The translations under genes were made by a program, and so were the position numbers. Below, piece after piece: positions 10,374-14,349 of a stretch of DNA of 32,000 bases (the first letter of the stretch is position 1; every line of letters begins with the position of its first letter). The stretch is from an uncultured Clostridia bacterium. Its GTDB lineage: Bacteria; Bacillota; Clostridia; TANB77; CAG-508. A model generated the notes under the pieces. It saw only the letters and a list, made by a program, of their open reading frames with translations, had not been told where the DNA came from and searched no databases. The DNA lies in the NCBI GenBank assembly GCA_944392805.1, contig CALXXZ010000001.1:253977-285976 (forward strand). The letters run 5' to 3'.

Positions 10374-12041
10374 ATGTTAAAAAATAAAAATGGTATAACA
10401 CTAATAGCATTAGTAGTAACAATAGTTGTTTTACTAATACTAGCAGGTGTAAGTATATCAATGTTAACAGGAGAGAATGGAATAATAAAACAGGCACAGG
10501 AAGCAAAAGAGAAAACTGATATAGGAAGAGAAAGAGAGATAGTAGGATTAGCAGCAGTAGGAGCAGCTGGAAGAAATAGCTATGGAGAGATAACAGAAGC
10601 AAACTTAGAAATAGAGTTAAATGAAATGATAGGACCAAGAGATGAAGACTATACATTAGCAAAAGATGGAGAAAATTTTATAGTAACATATACAGATAGT
10701 AATAGAAGCTATACAGTAGACGAAAATGGAAATGTAACAGAGGGCGGAAAAGATGAAACAGGAATAGCAATAAAATTAACTTTAACACATGAAAATAAAA
10801 CATTAAATGTAAGTGAATTACCAAATGTAAAAGAAGTAGTAGATGACAATGTACCAATACCAGAAGGATTTTACTATGTAGGAGGAACAAAAGACGAAGG
10901 AGTAGTAATTTCAGATATGGATGGAGATGACTTAAATAACTCAAAACACGGAAATCAATTTGTATGGATACCAGTAAATCAAAATCAAAAATTAACATTA
11001 GAAGTAACAAGTAAAGAAGATATAACAGAAATAGTAGTAACACAACCAGATGGCTCAAAATCTACGATATCAGCAAGTGGAAAAACATATAATGGCGAAA
11101 TTACAATGACAAAAAATGGAGTATATGAAGTAGAAGTAAAAACAGCAACAACTTCGAAAAAAGCAAGTAAAAGAGTTTCAAGTTTATATGCACAAGATGT
11201 AAAAGCATTTACAACAGTAATGGTAGCAACATTTGAAGTAGCAGCACATGAAAAATATAATACAGTTTCTGAATTGTTGGAAGTAAAAGGAGTAGATTCA
11301 ATAGAAACACTGCTTAGTACAGGAGGATATCCATCAATAGAAATATACATGATGAGTGAAATGATATATGTAGAAGAATTAAAGGAAGAATTTGAAGGAC
11401 TAATGAAAAGCATGATGGCAGAATTTGAAGACCATAATCAAAATATAGAAAGTGTAAATAAATATGGAGGATATTATATAGGAAGATATGAAGCAGGAGA
11501 TGGTACAACAACAGCTCCAAGAACATCTTCAACATCAGATACAAATACATTAGTGAGTAAAAAAGGAGCATATGTATATAATTATATAACAAATGATAGT
11601 GCAAAAAGTTTATCAAGTGGAATGTGTAGTGGAAATGGAGCAATAACAAGTCAACTAATAACAGGAGCAGGATGGGATAGAGCATTAAATTGGATAATAG
11701 AAACAGGAGAAAAAACAGAAGAAGTATTATTCGATAGTAGAAGTTGGGGAAATTATTATAACTCAACAGGAAATGCAGCAACAAATGCAGGTCCAGAAAA
11801 CATGAATTTTACAACTGGAAGAAGTGAGTATTGGAAAGCAAATAATATATATGATTTAGCAGGAAATACATGGGAATGGACACAAGAAACATATCAGAAT
11901 AATGACAGTACTTACAGTGTCGTTCGAGGAGGCTACTACAACAATGAAGGTGACTTCTATCCAGCAGGCAGACGCAGCAACGACAGTCCAGACGATCAGA
12001 ACGGCGCATCGTTCCGTACCCAGCTTTATATAAATGTATAG
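10374..12041 (+). CDS. DGR target (variable) protein: prepilin-type N-terminal segment plus C-terminal FGE-sulfatase/C-type-lectin-fold domain carrying the VR
   Basis: SD AGAGAGGAG, then ATG 10374. The N-terminus is MLKNKNGITLIALVVTIVVLLILAGVSISMLTGENGIIKQAQEAKEKT (class III/prepilin-like signal). The C-terminus is ..NIYDLAGNTWEWTQE...VVRGGYYNN...FRTQL, the GNxWEWT / RGG / FR pattern of DGR-diversified CLec folds. The last ~40 codons are the VR. Confidence 0.85.
   Translation: MLKNKNGITLIALVVTIVVLLILAGVSISMLTGENGIIKQAQEAKEKTDIGREREIVGLAAVGAAGRNSYGEITEANLEIELNEMIGPRDEDYTLAKDGENFIVTYTDSNRSYTVDENGNVTEGGKDETGIAIKLTLTHENKTLNVSELPNVKEVVDDNVPIPEGFYYVGGTKDEGVVISDMDGDDLNNSKHGNQFVWIPVNQNQKLTLEVTSKEDITEIVVTQPDGSKSTISASGKTYNGEITMTKNGVYEVEVKTATTSKKASKRVSSLYAQDVKAFTTVMVATFEVAAHEKYNTVSELLEVKGVDSIETLLSTGGYPSIEIYMMSEMIYVEELKEEFEGLMKSMMAEFEDHNQNIESVNKYGGYYIGRYEAGDGTTTAPRTSSTSDTNTLVSKKGAYVYNYITNDSAKSLSSGMCSGNGAITSQLITGAGWDRALNWIIETGEKTEEVLFDSRSWGNYYNSTGNAATNAGPENMNFTTGRSEYWKANNIYDLAGNTWEWTQETYQNNDSTYSVVRGGYYNNEGDFYPAGRRSNDSPDDQNGASFRTQLYINV
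11907..12028 (+). repeat. DGR variable repeat (VR)
   Basis: Collinear with 14066-14190. Twelve clean differences all fall at TR adenines. The 3' block TCGTTCCGTACCCAGCT is identical in both repeats and looks like an IMH. Confidence 0.9.
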
Positions 12042-12110
12042 CTGTAAGCTGAACGGTATTAGAAGATATAGAATAAATAGAAATAGATAATAATTAAATA
12101 AAAGAAATCT

Positions 12111-12133
12111 TTAGTGGGTGGGACATCCACTAA
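12111..12133 (+). other. Hairpin downstream of the VR
   Basis: TTAGTGGGTG / CATCCACTAA, a 10-bp stem with one G-T wobble and a GGA loop. Confidence 0.6.
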
Positions 12134-12141
12134 AAACAATA

Positions 12142-12176
12142 GAGAAATGTTATGCGTGTAATGCGTAACATTTCTC
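12142..12176 (+). other. Long hairpin downstream of the VR
   Basis: GAGAAATGTTA (12142-12152) pairs with TAACATTTCTC (12166-12176). The stem extends through TGCG/TGCG with wobbles around loop TGTAA, about 15 bp in total. Confidence 0.65.
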
Positions 12177-12224
12177 CCTAACGGGTACCCTAACGGGTAC
12201 CCTAACGGGTACCCTAACGGGTAC
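12177..12224 (+). repeat. Four perfect tandem copies of the 12-mer CCTAACGGGTAC, each junction forming the palindrome GGGTACCC
   Basis: Read directly: 12177-12188, 12189-12200, 12201-12212, 12213-12224. It is a GC-rich island in a very AT-rich context. Confidence 0.95.
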
Positions 12225-12233
12225 TATTTTTTT
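12209..12233 (+). terminator. Candidate intrinsic terminator or attenuator formed by the last two 12-mer units
   Basis: GTACCC-TAAC-GGGTAC hairpin (12209-12224) followed by TATTTTTTT (12225-12233). Equivalent hairpins can form in two upstream registers. Confidence 0.5.
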
Positions 12234-12264
12234 GCTCAAAAATGAATGAGGAGGCAAAATAAAG

Positions 12265-12702
12265 GTGAATTATTTAGAATTAATGAAAAAGCTTAATGAA
12301 GAAAATAAAGGTTATATAGTGCTTATGAGAAGTGGAGTATTTTTAACAGCAATAGGAAAAAATGCTATAAAATTATCAGAATTATTTGGATTAAAATTAT
12401 TATGTATTACAGATGGTATTTGTAAGTGTTCAATCCCAGCAAATTCATTAGACAAATATATAATAAAATTCCAAAAATCAAGATATTCATTCTTAATTTA
12501 TGATTATAATAAAAATGGATTTAAAGATAGTAATGAAAAATATAAATTAATTTCAAAAATAGATGGATTACTAAATGAAGAAAATAGAGAACATTTAAAT
12601 TGTGAAGAATGTTGGTATAACCGAAATAAAAGAGTAAAAACAATAGAAAAAGCTATGCAGATATTAGAACAATATGTAAAGGATAAAAATAAAAATGAAT
12701 GA
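12265..12702 (+). CDS. DGR accessory ORF resembling MutS mismatch-binding domain I (MutS-like)
   Basis: YLELMKKLNEENKGYIVLMRSGVFLTAIGKNAIKLSELFGLKL....CSIPANSLDKYIIKFQKSRYSFLIYD parallels MutS YL.LK......ILLFR.GDFYE.F..DA...S..L...LT.....P.AG.P......Y...L...G..VAI. GGAGG 12250-12254 is followed by GTG 12265. The stop overlaps the avd start (ATGAATGA). Confidence 0.55.
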   Translation: MNYLELMKKLNEENKGYIVLMRSGVFLTAIGKNAIKLSELFGLKLLCITDGICKCSIPANSLDKYIIKFQKSRYSFLIYDYNKNGFKDSNEKYKLISKIDGLLNEENREHLNCEECWYNRNKRVKTIEKAMQILEQYVKDKNKNE

Positions 12703-13706: not shown

Positions 13707-14041
13707 TAATTGTAAAAACAAAAGATGAAGCGAGAAAATGTCTTGAAGAAATAAGAAAATTTCTAAGAGAAAAATTACAACTAGAATTAAATAAAAAAAC
13801 ACAAATAATAAAAAATAAACAAGGTGTTAATTTTTGTGGATATAAAATAAATGAATATAGAATGAAAATAAGAGATAAAGGAAAAAGAAAACTAAAGAAA
13901 AAAATAAAATTTTTAAAATATGAAATAAAAAATGAAAGAATGACAAATAAAGATGCAAAAAAATATTTAGCAGGACATTTAGGTTATATAAAAATGGCAA
14001 ATGTAAAAACACTTACAGAAAAACTATTCTATTTAGAATAA
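13694..14041 (+). CDS. DGR reverse transcriptase, C-terminal part in a different frame (DD of YxDD plus thumb)
   Basis: Reading from GAT 13694 gives DDSIIIVKTKDEARKCLEEIRKFLREKLQLELNKKTQIIKNKQGVNFCGYKINEYRMKIR...GHLGYIKMANVKTLTEKLFYLE, with stop TAA 14039-14041. This fragment is not in the ORF track. Confidence 0.8.
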   Translation, partial: DDSIIIVKTKDEARKCLEEIRKFLREKLQLELNKKTQIIKNKQGVNFCGYKINEYRMKIRDKGKRKLKKKIKFLKYEIKNERMTNKDAKKYLAGHLGYIKMANVKTLTEKLFYLE

Positions 14042-14065
14042 GTTAAAATTAGGGATAAATCATAA

Positions 14066-14190
14066 AGTACTAACAGTGTCAATCGAGGAGGCAACTACAA
14101 CAATGAAGGTGACAACAATCCAGCAGGCAATCGCAACAACAACAGTCCAGACAATCAGAACGACAACAATTCGTTCCGTACCCAGCTCTA
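14066..14190 (+). repeat. DGR template repeat (TR)
   Basis: Adenine-rich. In the VR frame it is packed with AAC/AAT codons (..NSVNRGGNYNNEGDNNPAGNRNNNSPDNQNDNNSFRTQL). It begins 25 nt after the RT stop. Confidence 0.9.
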
Positions 14191-14214
14191 ATATTATTCC
14201 AGATTATATATTTC

Positions 14215-14269
14215 AAGGAATATATACAGAGATATATTAGAATATTAAAGGGATTTATTCCTTCCTAAT
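14215..14269 (+). other. Stem with a large loop in the region 3' of the TR
   Basis: AAGGAATA (14215-14222) pairs with TATTCCTT (14262-14269). Confidence 0.35.
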
Positions 14270-14287
14270 ATAGGTAAACATGAATCA

Positions 14288-14328
14288 GTAAAATATGTAT
14301 TAGTAGAAATCGAATATACATATTTTAC
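14288..14328 (+). other. Perfect 13-bp hairpin 3' of the TR
   Basis: GTAAAATATGTAT (14288-14300) pairs with ATACATATTTTAC (14316-14328). No T-run follows, so it is not a canonical terminator. Confidence 0.6.
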
Positions 14329-14349
14329 GACTAAAAAAAAGAGGAAGAT

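What the first reader, a model, noticed from the sequence alone, without database searches (positions are those of the whole stretch)
10374..14330. Complete diversity-generating retroelement: target(VR) - hairpins/repeat - MutS-like ORF - avd - RT - TR
TR 14066-14190 and VR 11907-12028 are collinear, with a constant offset of 2159 for the first ~100 nt. Every clean substitution sits at a TR adenine:
- a14072>t
- a14081>g
- a14082>t
- a14093>t
- a14114>t
- a14115>t
- a14117>t
- a14130>g
- a14136>g
- a14141>g
- a14153>g
- a14163>g
In the VR reading frame the TR is a string of AAC/AAT codons. These correspond in the VR to TAC, GTT, TAC, TTC, TAT, AGA, AGC, GAC, GAT and GGC. The 3' block TCGTTCCGTACCCAGCT is identical in both repeats and is IMH-like. 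The VR lies in the last ~40 codons of a protein with the GNxWEWT...RGG...FR signature of CLec/FGE-sulfatase-fold DGR targets. An Avd-like ORF and an RT with the DGR-type IGNxxSQ motif lie between VR and TR. The TR is placed after the RT rather than before it.
Basis: partly seen in the sequence, partly recalled or inferred. Interest (0 to 1): 0.8.

Follow-up and report, generated by a model that had tools for sequence, protein, structure and literature searches.

The report
Active DGR with frameshifted reverse transcriptase
This is a real diversity-generating retroelement that rewrites the tip of a surface protein in an uncultured gut Clostridia bacterium, and it still appears to work although its reverse transcriptase gene carries a species-wide 2-base frameshift inside the catalytic motif.

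Summary
The repeat pair, Avd, MutS-like gene and DGR-type RT are all present at the stated coordinates. TR 14066-14187 and VR 11907-12025 differ at 12 TR adenines and one T in the 99-nt ungapped core, followed by a 3-nt gap.

Three things were missed.
1. The RT is not one ORF. A 2-nt insertion turns TAT-CTC-GAT-GAT into TATCTCTCGATGAT inside YLDD. The same insertion is in all 12 related strain loci and 13 distinct database proteins. The other 79 family loci are intact.
2. The element nevertheless looks active. Strains with 0 differences across 1.6-2.0 kb of cassette differ at 17-28 positions of a 105-column VR alignment. Clade-wide, 141 of 145 mismatches sit at TR adenines. Private non-A TR variants reappear in the cognate VR. 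Both RT halves show purifying selection (dN/dS 0.05-0.33), although the downstream half has no start codon of its own for 56 codons. I infer recoding, most simply a +2 slip CUC to CUC before rare UCG. A second RT acting in trans is the main rival.
3. The cassette runs further than 14330. Rfam RT-14 RNA (14186-14328) abuts the TR, and a conserved 83-aa SSB-fold gene (14350-14601) follows it.

Verdict: a genuine DGR and a new variant of a known kind.

The parts
10374..12041 (+). Target gene (555 aa). It has an N-terminal hydrophobic, prepilin-like helix, then beta-sandwich domains, then a C-terminal FGE/C-type-lectin-fold domain that carries the VR.
   Evidence: The ORF is. Database protein P0165 is 100% identical over its 555 aa. 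Pfam gives FGE-sulfatase 25.9 bits (above cut-off) and N_methyl 17.3 bits (below the 21.2 cut-off). The AF2 model has pLDDT 83.8, and Foldseek returns ToxD, TvpA 2y3c, PvdO, PorK and EgtB.
11907..12008 (+). VR, the variable part, within the last ~45 codons of the target.
   Evidence: It aligns to the TR with 12 A-site mismatches, one T-to-A change and a 3-nt gap. It differs at 25-30 of 105 aligned columns from the VRs of sister strains.
12009..12025 (+). IMH-like block TCGTTCCGTACCCAGCT at the 3' end of the VR.
   Evidence: It is identical to TR 14171-14187, and it is invariant in every sister-strain VR and TR recovered, including its two adenines. The sequences to the right of it diverge (TTATAT against CTAATA).
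12110..12134 (.). Hairpin 1 (11-bp stem, 3-nt loop).
   Evidence: DNA fold -6.8 kcal/mol, z -4.0. It is conserved in all strains.
12142..12176 (.). Hairpin 2 (15-bp stem, 5-nt loop).
   Evidence: DNA fold -12.2 kcal/mol, z -8.9. It is conserved in all strains.
12176..12224 (+). 12-nt tandem repeat CCCTAACGGGTA x4.1. It forms 8-bp GC-rich stems with 4-nt loops, and the last stem is followed by T7, so it looks like an intrinsic terminator or attenuator between the target gene and the accessory operon.
   Evidence: TRF reports 100% matches. The terminator scan places a site at 12208-12225 plus a T-run. Copy number is 1, 2 or 4 among strains.
12265..12702 (+). MSL (MutS-like) accessory gene, 145 aa.
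   Evidence: Pfam MutS_I 26.3 bits against a 20.6 cut-off. It corresponds to the MSL class of Wu et al. 2018. It lies upstream of Avd in 49 of 65 family loci.
12695..13051 (+). avd, 118 aa. It overlaps the MSL stop and the RT start.
   Evidence: Pfam bAvd 77 bits. NCBIfam DivGenRetAVD 88.6 bits against a cut-off of 80.
13029..13691 (+). RT, upstream part in frame 0 (221 codons through Leu CTC). If the frame is not changed, the ORF runs on to the stop at 13704-13706.
   Evidence: dN/dS is 0.05-0.18 among haplogroups, and segregating sites by codon position are 12/5/41.
13688..13693 (+). (TC)3, the frameshift site. The CTCTC run gives two overlapping CTC codons, and the 0-frame A-site codon is TCG.
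   Evidence: TATCTCTCGATGAT is present in the window and in all 12 strain loci. The other 79 family loci read [YF]xRY[LM]DD without interruption. CTC occurs at 0.26 and TCG at 0.66 per 1000 codons in this window.
13694..14041 (+). RT, downstream part in the +2 frame (DDSIIIV... to the stop). There is no canonical start codon before 13862.
   Evidence: The frame is open in every strain as far as its contig reaches. dN/dS is 0.08-0.33, and the first 60 codons have 1/4/15 segregating sites by codon position (P=1.7e-4). The alignment to Brt continues straight across the junction.
14066..14187 (+). TR. The templating part is 14066-14170 and the IMH*-like block is 14171-14187.
   Evidence: It contains 15 AAY codons and 46 A. 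It can encode about 10^24 protein variants, and no stop codon is reachable by changing adenines.
14186..14328 (+). RT-14 RNA (Rfam RF02921), abutting the 3' end of the TR. It is the likely counterpart of the BPP-1 spacer RNA that primes cDNA synthesis.
   Evidence: 118 bits against a gathering score of 48.1. It sits in the same position in 11 of 11 family loci scanned. The pair G14288-C14328 covaries to A-T in three haplogroups.
14350..14601 (+). 83-aa SSB-fold (OB) protein, a candidate further accessory gene of this DGR family.
   Evidence: It lies directly after RT-14 in 57 of 74 family loci, while the genes further downstream differ between loci. Pfam SSB hits 35 of 42 members. The AF2 model has pLDDT 94.4, and all of the top 50 Foldseek PDB matches are SSBs with TM 0.70-0.89.

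Best explanation
This is a chromosomal DGR of a large family found in uncultured, very AT-rich gut Clostridia.

Order of parts: target gene with VR, terminator-like hairpins, MSL, Avd, RT, TR, RT-14 RNA, mini-SSB.

Mechanism, by analogy with BPP-1. An RNA containing the TR and RT-14 is copied by the RT-Avd complex. Template adenines are misread. The cDNA replaces the VR, anchored at the shared 17-nt GC-rich block. This rewrites up to about 26 residues of the ligand-binding face of a C-type-lectin-fold domain on a membrane-anchored, probably surface-exposed protein.

Special feature. In this species the RT reading frame is broken by a fixed TC insertion inside the YLDD box. Even so, the element has kept diversifying and both RT halves remain under purifying selection. 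Full-length RT must therefore be produced by a non-standard decoding event within 13661-13703. The simplest candidate is a +2 slip of peptidyl-tRNA-Leu from CUC (13689-91) to the overlapping CUC (13691-93), while the very rare UCG codon waits in the A site. That slip restores exactly YARYLDD. A low slip efficiency would act as a throttle on mutagenesis.

Shown here: the anatomy, the adenine-specific and recent VR change, the fixation of the frameshift, and selection on both halves.
Inferred: the decoding mechanism, and the roles of RT-14, MSL and the SSB-fold protein.

Sub-confidences: genuine DGR 0.97. Active after the frameshift arose 0.9. Frame restored by recoding of this gene about 0.55.
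For: Identity as a DGR.
- The corrected RT's best solved match is BPP-1 Brt: 128 bits, residues 2-321 aligned, YARYLDD opposite WARYMDD.
- Avd passes the equivalog cut-off.
- MutS_I is found in the MSL ORF.
- The target has the FGE/CLec fold, with TvpA among the top structural matches.
- The TR codon design is typical of a DGR.

The frameshift is real and fixed.
- The same TATCTCTCGATGAT is in the window and in 12 loci from independent assemblies.
- 13 distinct truncated RT products are in the protein database (12 of 225 aa, one of 213 aa), and none in those clusters is full length.
- 79 of 79 other family loci are intact at this site.
- Haplogroup-specific SNPs lie 25 nt upstream and 14 nt downstream of the site, so there is no sweep tract around it.

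Activity after the frameshift.
- L081, L083 and L084 have 0 differences in 1615-1979 nt of cassette and 0 in up to 1283 nt of target gene, but 17-28 differences in the 105 aligned VR columns.
- Across 8 distinct VRs, 141 mismatches fall at A and 4 at non-A positions (P=1e-57).
- All 5 private non-A TR variants of the L089 group, and the window's 2 private non-A TR variants plus its private G (where the other TRs have A), are mirrored in the cognate VR.

The downstream half is translated in the +2 frame.
- The frame is open in every strain as far as its contig reaches.
- dN/dS is 0.08-0.33. Third-position SNPs number 15 of 20 in the first 60 codons. No start codon precedes 13862.

Slip-site features.
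- CTCTC gives perfect re-pairing after a +2 slip.
- CTC and TCG are among the rarest codons in the window.

Family context.
- RT-14 directly follows the TR in 11 of 11 loci scanned.
- The SSB-fold gene follows it in 57 of 74 loci.
Against: - No trans-frame protein or edited mRNA has been observed. The mechanism is inferred only.
- No conserved stimulatory RNA structure or Shine-Dalgarno-like element was found near the site. The only predicted pairing partner of CUCUCG is not conserved.
- To my knowledge, natural programmed +2 frameshifts are almost unknown.
- The 46 nt around the site carry no SNPs, so the exact shift point cannot be read from the polymorphism.
- The same genome carries a paralogous target-like gene (P0190) whose VR-like end does not derive from this TR. 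Several related MAGs carry two DGR loci. A second RT could therefore exist and might recognise the conserved RT-14 RNA.
- The window's own VR has three non-canonical features: a T-to-A change, a 3-nt deletion and a 9-nt insertion.
- The canonical GC-rich GRNA-loop hairpin 4-34 bp after the VR (Guo et al. 2011) is absent. The fold immediately after the IMH is not significant (z -1.6).
Confidence: 0.6

Rival explanations
1. Trans-complementation. The RT gene in this cassette is dead. A second, intact DGR RT-Avd encoded elsewhere in the same genome reverse-transcribes this TR-RT-14 RNA and keeps the VR diversifying.
For: - Five related MAGs in the top 80 hits carry two loci of this RT family.
- The window's own 314-kb contig appears to hold a paralogous target-like gene, P0190 (67% identity). 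Its VR-like end is the same length as this VR but is not derivable from this TR, which implies another TR now or in the past.
- RT-14 is conserved across the family, so cross-recognition by another RT is conceivable.
Against: - A dead gene should drift. Instead the N-half has dN/dS 0.05-0.18. The C-half is open in every strain as far as its contig reaches, with dN/dS 0.08-0.33 in the +2 frame, strong third-position bias, and no start codon of its own.
- The representative MAG of this species (CALXJU01) contributed only one locus to the 80 best RT matches, which extend down to 62% identity.
- In my recollection of Handa et al. 2018, the BPP-1 RT-Avd complex is specific for its cognate RNA. I did not check this here.
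Confidence: 0.22
2. DNA-level phase variation. The (TC)3 tract flips between (TC)3 (OFF) and (TC)2 (ON) by replication slippage. Diversification happens in rare ON cells, and assemblies only ever show the majority OFF state.
For: - The insertion is an expansion of a dinucleotide repeat, TATCTCGAT to TATCTCTCGAT. The (TC)2 form exists in intact relatives such as L023, L025 and L048.
- This would also keep both halves under selection.
Against: - Three repeat units is far below the length at which slipped-strand phase variation is frequent (general knowledge).
- Every one of 13 distinct sequences from independent samples is in the OFF state.
- Each newly diversified lineage, for example L081, L083 and L084, would have had to switch ON and then OFF again without any other mutation.
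Confidence: 0.08
3. Decaying element. The RT is a pseudogene, the DGR is frozen, and the VR differences are historical or come from ordinary mutation and recombination.
For: - The RT ORF is interrupted in the catalytic motif.
- The window's VR carries a non-A change and two indels.
Against: - Strains identical over more than 3 kb differ at 17-28 VR positions, at TR adenines only.
- Private TR variants have been copied into the cognate VRs after the haplogroups split.
- Both RT halves, Avd, MSL and RT-14 are conserved, and RT-14 has a compensatory pair change.
Confidence: 0.04
4. Sequencing or assembly artefact. The 2-nt insertion is an error and the RT is really intact.
For: None beyond the general possibility of indel errors.
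Against: The same insertion appears in contigs from several unrelated studies and assemblers (BRZ SPAdes contigs, ONAT22 scaffolds, the ERZ2916xxx and ERZ16268xxx sets, Logan). These fall into four haplogroups that are 3-5% apart.
Confidence: 0.01

Closest known systems
Bordetella phage BPP-1 DGR (mtd-avd-TR-brt), the prototype
   Same: - The RT is the closest solved homologue (8ub7, 128 bits, full length).
- An Avd is present.
- Adenine-specific TR-to-VR transfer.
- The VR lies at the C-terminus of a C-type-lectin-fold protein.
- A GC-rich block is shared at the 3' end of TR and VR.
- A structured RNA directly follows the TR. In BPP-1 this is the spacer, Rfam RT-10.
   Different: - It is chromosomal, not phage-borne. 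The RT is under 45% identical to any phage RT in the phage collection.
- The gene order is avd-RT-TR rather than avd-TR-RT.
- It has additional MSL and SSB-fold genes.
- The RNA motif is RT-14, not RT-10.
- There is no GRNA-loop hairpin within 34 bp of the VR.
- The RT ORF is frameshifted.
MSL-containing DGRs (Architecture D of Wu, Zimmerly et al. 2018, which includes the Legionella pneumophila DGR)
   Same: A small MutS-domain-I-like accessory protein occurs together with Avd, and there is no HRDC gene.
   Different: That survey listed only 16 such DGRs and did not describe an SSB-fold gene. The family here has hundreds of members in gut Clostridia MAGs. In one subclade the MSL gene lies downstream on the opposite strand.
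Treponema denticola TvpA and other FGE/CLec-fold DGR variable proteins
   Same: The predicted C-terminal domain matches 2y3c (Foldseek probability 1.00). The VR encodes the last strands and loops of that fold.
   Different: TvpA is a lipoprotein. This target has a prepilin-like N-terminal hydrophobic helix that lacks Glu5, followed by beta-sandwich domains. Sequence identity to TvpA is only about 14%.
Programmed frameshift sites that rely on P-site tRNA re-pairing next to a slow A-site codon. Examples are yeast Ty1 CUU-AGG-C (+1), bacterial prfB CUU-UGA-C (+1), and short tRNA hops (from my own knowledge of the recoding literature)
   Same: - A Leu CUN codon sits in the P site.
- The next codon is very rare.
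- The landing codon is a perfect match.
- In Ty1 the frameshift likewise controls expression of a retroelement's RT.
   Different: - The required shift is +2 (equivalent to -1), not +1.
- No stimulator was found.
- It lies inside the catalytic motif of one protein, not between two ORFs.
- Nothing here has been tested experimentally.
Rfam RT-14 RNA (RF02921; Weinberg et al. 2017)
   Same: A full-length match at 118 bits, next to an RT gene.
   Different: The original paper only speculated that some RT motifs belong to DGRs, and it tied RT-10 to BPP-1. Here RT-14 starts within 2 nt of the end of TR homology in the window, and sits just after the TR in 11 of 11 related loci.

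Membership tests
Diversity-generating retroelement | An RT of the DGR type, closer to DGR RTs than to group II intron or retron RTs, with the (I/L)GxxxSQ motif | tested here: met
   The best PDB hit is BPP-1 Brt at 128 bits, against 72 bits for group II and 57 for retron RTs. 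IGNYTSQ is present. No phylogenetic tree was built.
Diversity-generating retroelement | A TR/VR repeat pair whose differences fall almost only at TR adenines | tested here: met
   In the window, 12 mismatches at A and 1 at non-A in the 99-nt ungapped core (P=1e-4). Clade-wide, 141 at A and 4 at non-A (P=1e-57).
Diversity-generating retroelement | The VR lies at the 3' end of a protein-coding target gene, and the TR is rich in AAY codons from which no stop codon can be reached | tested here: met
   The VR occupies the last ~45 codons of the target. The TR has 15 AAY codons and no reachable stop.
Diversity-generating retroelement | A single, uninterrupted RT reading frame | tested here: not met
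   A 2-nt insertion at 13692-13693 splits the RT at YL|DD. This is offset by evidence of continued activity and selection.
Diversity-generating retroelement | IMH/IMH* elements at the 3' ends of VR and TR that direct one-way transfer | tested here: inconclusive
   A 17-nt GC-rich block is identical in TR and VR, is never mutated, and has divergent sequence to its right. The function and the discriminating positions cannot be tested in silico.
Diversity-generating retroelement | A GC-rich hairpin or cruciform with a 4-nt GRNA loop 4-34 bp downstream of the VR (Guo et al. 2011) | tested here: not met
   The first 35 nt after the IMH fold no better than shuffles (z -1.6). The strong hairpins lie 84-200 nt downstream. 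The 8-bp GC stems with 4-nt loops in the tandem repeat have the loop TAAC.
Diversity-generating retroelement | Evidence of ongoing diversification | tested here: met
   Strains with otherwise identical loci carry different VRs. TR-private variants have been transferred to the cognate VR.
Avd (DGR accessory variability determinant) | A match to the curated equivalog model above its cut-off | tested here: met
   NF033474 at 88.6 bits against 80. Pfam bAvd at 77 bits against 40.
MSL-type DGR (Architecture D, Wu et al. 2018) | A small MutS-domain-I-like gene in the cassette together with avd, and no HRDC gene | tested here: met
   MutS_I at 26.3 bits against 20.6 in a 145-aa ORF that overlaps the avd start. 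No HRDC hit was found in the cassette.
Rfam RT-14 RNA | A covariance-model score above the gathering threshold | tested here: met
   118 bits against 48.1, covering model positions 1-144.
Bacterial SSB | The SSB OB fold | tested here: met
   The AF2 model has pLDDT 94.4. All of the top 50 PDB matches are SSBs, with TM 0.70-0.89.
Bacterial SSB | A Pfam SSB match above the gathering score, and the C-terminal acidic interaction tail | tested here: not met
   The window protein scores 19.7 bits against 26. At 83 aa it ends with the OB domain and has no tail. I therefore call it SSB-fold, not a canonical SSB.
Programmed ribosomal frameshift / recoding site | The shift site is conserved, and both the upstream and downstream frames are under purifying selection | tested here: met
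Programmed ribosomal frameshift / recoding site | A conserved stimulatory element (a downstream structure or an upstream SD-like sequence) | tested here: not met
   The fold has z -1.65, and the pairing partner CGAGA varies among strains.
Programmed ribosomal frameshift / recoding site | A trans-frame protein product has been detected | not testable with these tools
   This needs proteomics or reporter assays.
Type IV pilin / pseudopilin | A prepilin N-terminal methylation motif above cut-off, with Glu at +5 | tested here: not met
   N_methyl scores 17.3 bits against 21.2, and the motif reads G|ITLIA with Ala at +5. The long N-terminal helix in the model is of low confidence.

The most novel reading that the evidence does not exclude
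Expression of this DGR's reverse transcriptase depends on a programmed +2 ribosomal slip, in which peptidyl-tRNA-Leu re-pairs from CUC to the overlapping CUC before the rare UCG codon. The slip lies inside the catalytic YLDD box, is fixed species-wide, and acts as a built-in throttle on hypermutation. The same DGR family also uses a dedicated SSB-fold protein and the RT-14 RNA as previously unrecognised components.
Probability: 0.45. Interest if true: 0.8.

Novelty: new variant of a known kind. Interest (0 to 1): 0.62.

Why it matters
DGRs are the only known natural system of targeted protein hypermutation in prokaryotes, and they are now being engineered for directed evolution.

If this RT is made only through a rare decoding event, it would be the first DGR found to regulate its mutator at the level of translation. 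It would also be a rare natural case of a +2 shift. The test is direct: compare (TC)3 and (TC)2 constructs.

Two further results stand independently of the frameshift.
- The orphan Rfam motif RT-14 can now be assigned to the TR-adjacent RNA of a large DGR family.
- A conserved mini-SSB is a candidate cDNA-handling factor. It appears in neither the 2018 survey of DGR accessory genes nor the papers returned by three full-text searches.

The strain series also offers a natural data set on how fast a cellular DGR turns over. Loci that are identical elsewhere carry VRs that differ at 17-28 positions.

Tried and rejected
- Exact-protein look-ups for the window's Avd, GyrA, target (P0165), RT N-half (P0156) and the paralog P0190 returned nothing. 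I therefore could not read the rest of the window's 314-kb contig, and could not search its genome for a second RT.
- P0029 seemed to share a 25,913-bp contig with a frameshifted RT. It turned out to be a different contig of the same length.
- Two pattern scans of the JGI metagenome contigs for the frameshift site, with or without the TC, found nothing of this clade. The single hit, L098, is an unrelated chance match.
- The RNA fold around the shift site suggested that CUCUCG pairs with a downstream CGAGA. The partner is not conserved among strains, so I dropped it as a stimulator.
- The following were considered and judged unlikely:
  - A -1 slip at UCG would give YARYLSDD and break the YxDD spacing.
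  - Transcriptional slippage at the A5 run would replace YYARYL by ILCKISL.
  - Internal initiation of the C-half has no ATG, GTG or TTG before 13862.
  - Termination-reinitiation would lose the catalytic DD.
- The sequence directly after the IMH was folded to look for the canonical DGR cruciform. The result was not significant.
It succeeded with representatives from the protein library.
- Literature searches for RT-14 with DGR, DGR with ribosomal frameshift, DGR with SSB, and the PDB code 8UB7 gave nothing relevant.

Full report
**1. Checking the observation**

The window has 24% G+C. TR 14066-14187 and VR 11907-12025 align without gaps for 99 nt at a constant offset of 2159. A 3-nt gap in the VR follows, and then an identical 17-nt block, TCGTTCCGTACCCAGCT.

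One change inside the AAT-to-AGA codon is T14131 to A, which is not an adenine. In the ungapped core, 12 of 42 A positions and 1 of 57 non-A positions differ (Fisher P=1e-4). Scanning both strands of the window with the non-A positions of the TR finds only this one VR.

Read in the target's frame, the TR has 15 AAY codons and 46 adenines. It can specify about 10^24 peptides, and no stop codon is reachable by changing adenines.

**2. The proteins**

- **Target, 10374-12041 (555 aa).** Pfam FGE-sulfatase matches above its cut-off at residues 427-542. There is a sub-threshold prepilin N_methyl match at residues 3-26, and Glu5 is replaced by Ala. An AlphaFold model built on 44 homologues has pLDDT 83.8. 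It shows an N-terminal helix, beta-sandwich domains and a C-terminal domain. The best structural matches of that domain are ToxD, the known DGR target TvpA (2y3c), PvdO, PorK and EgtB, all of the FGE/C-type-lectin fold.
- **12265-12702.** This is a MutS-domain-I protein, the MSL accessory class of Wu et al. 2018.
- **12695-13051.** This is Avd, and it passes the NCBIfam equivalog cut-off.
- **The RT.** After frame correction it aligns over residues 2-321 with PDB 8ub7. I confirmed that 8ub7 is Bordetella phage BPP-1 Brt. It scores 128 bits, against 72 bits for group II intron RTs and 57 bits for retron RTs.

**3. The RT is frameshifted, and the frameshift is fixed in the species**

The 0-frame ORF 13029-13706 ends ...KYYARYLSMIV*. 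The remainder, DDSIIIV... to 14041, is in the +2 frame. The DNA reads TAT CTC TC GAT GAT. Intact relatives read TAT CTC GAT GAT or equivalent. The lesion is therefore a TC insertion that turns (TC)2 into (TC)3 inside the catalytic YLDD box.

A scan of one genome per species returned 80 related loci, all from uncultured gut Clostridia MAGs. Seventy-nine have an uninterrupted [YF]xRY[LM]DD. The exception, L050, is a syntenic relative at 91% nucleotide identity and carries the identical insertion.

The protein database holds 13 distinct truncated products (12 of 225 aa, one of 213 aa) in two clusters. They come from several unrelated assembly projects, and no member of those clusters is full length. 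I retrieved 12 such loci (L081-L092). All contain TATCTCTCGATGAT.

Together with the window, these loci form about four haplogroups that are 3-5% apart. Haplogroup-specific SNPs lie 25 nt upstream and 14 nt downstream of the site. The insertion is therefore ancestral to the clade. It is neither an assembly error nor a recent sweep.

**4. The element has remained active since the frameshift arose**

- Each strain's VR differs from its own TR at 12-22 positions, with at most one of these at a non-adenine. Pooled, 141 of 385 A positions and 4 of 568 non-A positions differ (P=1e-57).
- L081, L083 and L084 come from different samples. They show 0 differences in 1615-1979 nt of cassette and 0 in up to 1283 nt of the target gene. 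They show 17-28 differences in the 105 aligned VR columns.
- TR variants private to one haplogroup are all present in that haplogroup's VR. This holds for five non-A variants in the L089 group. It also holds for two non-A variants and a private G (where the other TRs have A) in the window. TR-to-VR transfer therefore occurred after the haplogroups split.

**5. Both RT halves are under purifying selection**

Nei-Gojobori dN/dS among haplogroups is 0.05-0.18 for the upstream half and 0.08-0.33 for the downstream half read in the +2 frame. Segregating sites by codon position are 12/5/41 for the upstream half and 6/10/18 for the downstream half. In the first 60 downstream codons they are 1/4/15 (P=1.7e-4).

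The downstream frame is open in every strain as far as its contig reaches. It has no ATG, GTG or TTG before 13862. Translation must therefore enter it from the upstream frame, somewhere between the +2-frame stop at 13658-13660 and the 0-frame stop at 13704-13706.

Only a shift at CUC|UC reproduces the family motif YARYLDD, and that is the reading which aligns with Brt. A +2 slip moves peptidyl-tRNA-Leu from CUC (13689-13691) to the overlapping, identical CUC (13691-13693). In this window CTC occurs at 0.26 per 1000 codons and the 0-frame A-site codon TCG at 0.66 per 1000. Both are among the rarest codons.

This resembles the slow-codon frameshift sites of Ty1 and prfB, which I cite from my own knowledge. 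No conserved stimulatory structure was found, and nothing here has been observed experimentally. I found no paper linking DGRs to ribosomal frameshifting.

**6. Rival explanations**

The main rival is a second RT acting in trans. It cannot be excluded, for two reasons.
- Related MAGs often carry two loci of this family.
- The window's own contig appears to encode a paralogous target-like protein, P0190. Its VR-like end has the same length as this VR but is not derivable from this TR.

This rival does not explain the selection on the downstream half of the RT.

Phase variation at (TC)3, a frozen pseudogene, and an assembly artefact are each contradicted by the population data (sections 3-5).

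**7. The cassette is larger than reported**

Rfam RT-14 (RF02921) matches 14186-14328 at 118 bits, against a gathering score of 48.1. It starts 2 nt before the end of TR homology. It occupies the same place in 11 of 11 family loci scanned, and the TR/VR pairs in those loci are adenine-biased. The terminal pair G14288-C14328 changes to A-T in three haplogroups.

Weinberg et al. 2017 tied only RT-10 to a DGR, as the spacer of BPP-1. RT-14 is the likely equivalent in this family.

Twenty-one nucleotides after RT-14, the ORF 14350-14601 (83 aa) is conserved on the same strand in 57 of 74 family loci, although the genes beyond it differ between loci. Evidence for its fold:
- Pfam SSB hits 35 of 42 members.
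- A PDB profile search is topped by SSBs, but weakly.
- The family has 192 representatives among 1.84 billion proteins, most of them 80-90 aa long.
- An AlphaFold model has pLDDT 94.4, and SSB OB domains are its top 50 structural matches, with TM 0.70-0.89.

It lacks the acidic tail of canonical SSBs. Neither the 2018 accessory-gene survey nor my three full-text searches mention such a gene.

**8. The intergenic hairpins and repeat**

Two strong hairpins (12110-12134 and 12142-12176) and a 12-nt tandem repeat (12176-12224) lie 84-200 nt after the VR. The repeat forms 8-bp GC-rich stems with 4-nt loops, and the last stem is followed by T7. This is the only terminator-like site in the region. 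Its copy number is 1, 2 or 4 among strains.

The most likely role is terminating or attenuating transcription between the target gene and the accessory operon. These elements do not match the GRNA-loop cruciform found 4-34 bp after the VR in phage DGRs. The sequence at that distance folds no better than shuffled controls.

**9. Genomic context**

The element lies between an AAA-ATPase/PD-(D/E)XK gene and a bona fide gyrA. Replication-loader and type IV secretion-like genes are nearby. There are no phage structural genes, and the RT is under 45% identical to any RT in the phage collection. This is a cellular DGR.

**10. Verdict**

As a DGR the locus is ordinary, since its general architecture (MSL, and avd-RT-TR order) has been described. 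Three things make it a new variant of a known kind:
- an RT frameshift that is fixed in the species, under selection on both sides, and evidently tolerated;
- the assignment of RT-14 to the TR-adjacent RNA of this DGR family;
- a conserved SSB-fold gene following RT-14.

Noticed in passing
window 2555-6380: A stretch of about 3.8 kb with essentially no ORFs. The only one of 60 aa or more is a 105-aa TTG ORF on the minus strand. G+C is 4-25%. The stretch is built of modules of roughly 950 bp that are 60-85% alike, each with a short conserved SD+ATG start that runs into a stop after 9-16 codons. It lies between a VirB4/TraC-like ATPase gene and ORF 6379-7083. Its function is unknown.
   Followed up: partly
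window 14350-14601: An 83-aa SSB-fold (OB) gene lies just outside the finding's coordinates. It is conserved directly after RT-14 in most loci of this DGR family. I now treat it as part of the cassette.
   Followed up: yes
outside the window (protein P0190; same 314,499-bp contig length as the window's own proteins P0165 and P0156): A 441-aa paralogue of the target (67% identity) with a different VR-like C-terminus (...CSFRVQLYINI). That end has the same length as this VR but cannot be derived from this TR. This suggests a second DGR, present or past, in the same genome. Its DNA could not be retrieved.
   Followed up: partly
window 11904-11912 and 12005-12008: The window's VR has 9 extra nt (AATAATGAC, three codons) at its 5' edge compared with all sister strains. 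Those 9 nt partly resemble the TR's 5' flank (AATCATAA). It also has a 3-nt deletion next to the IMH. These may be traces of imprecise cDNA integration.
   Followed up: partly
window 12176-12224; L081-L092: The copy number of the 12-nt terminator-like repeat CCCTAACGGGTA varies among closely related strains (1, 2 or 4 copies). It could tune read-through into the MSL-avd-RT operon.
   Followed up: partly
L092 6977-7114: In one strain the SSB-fold gene is truncated to 45 aa, while the rest of the cassette is intact and its VR is distinct.
   Followed up: no
L049, L058, L062, L067, L069, L072, L073, L076, L077, L079, L080: In the more distant subclade of the RT family (62-68% identity), the MSL homologue lies downstream of the RT on the opposite strand instead of upstream. 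Most of these loci show no detectable SSB-fold gene, although three (L049, L058, L067) do have one, and in L049 it is on the opposite strand. This is an architectural variant of the family.
   Followed up: no
window 795-2555, 17453-19466, 21002-22660, 14949-17396: A true gyrA (equivalog at 1235 bits, with no gyrB beside it) sits among VirB4-like, VirD4/TraG-like, DnaC-like and DnaB_2 genes. This arrangement is syntenic in all sister strains. It may be an old integrated conjugative element or an unusual chromosomal neighbourhood.
   Followed up: no
window 14633-14854: A 73-aa ORF between the SSB-fold gene and gyrA is conserved only within this species clade. It is Lys/Glu-rich and has no family match.
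   Followed up: no
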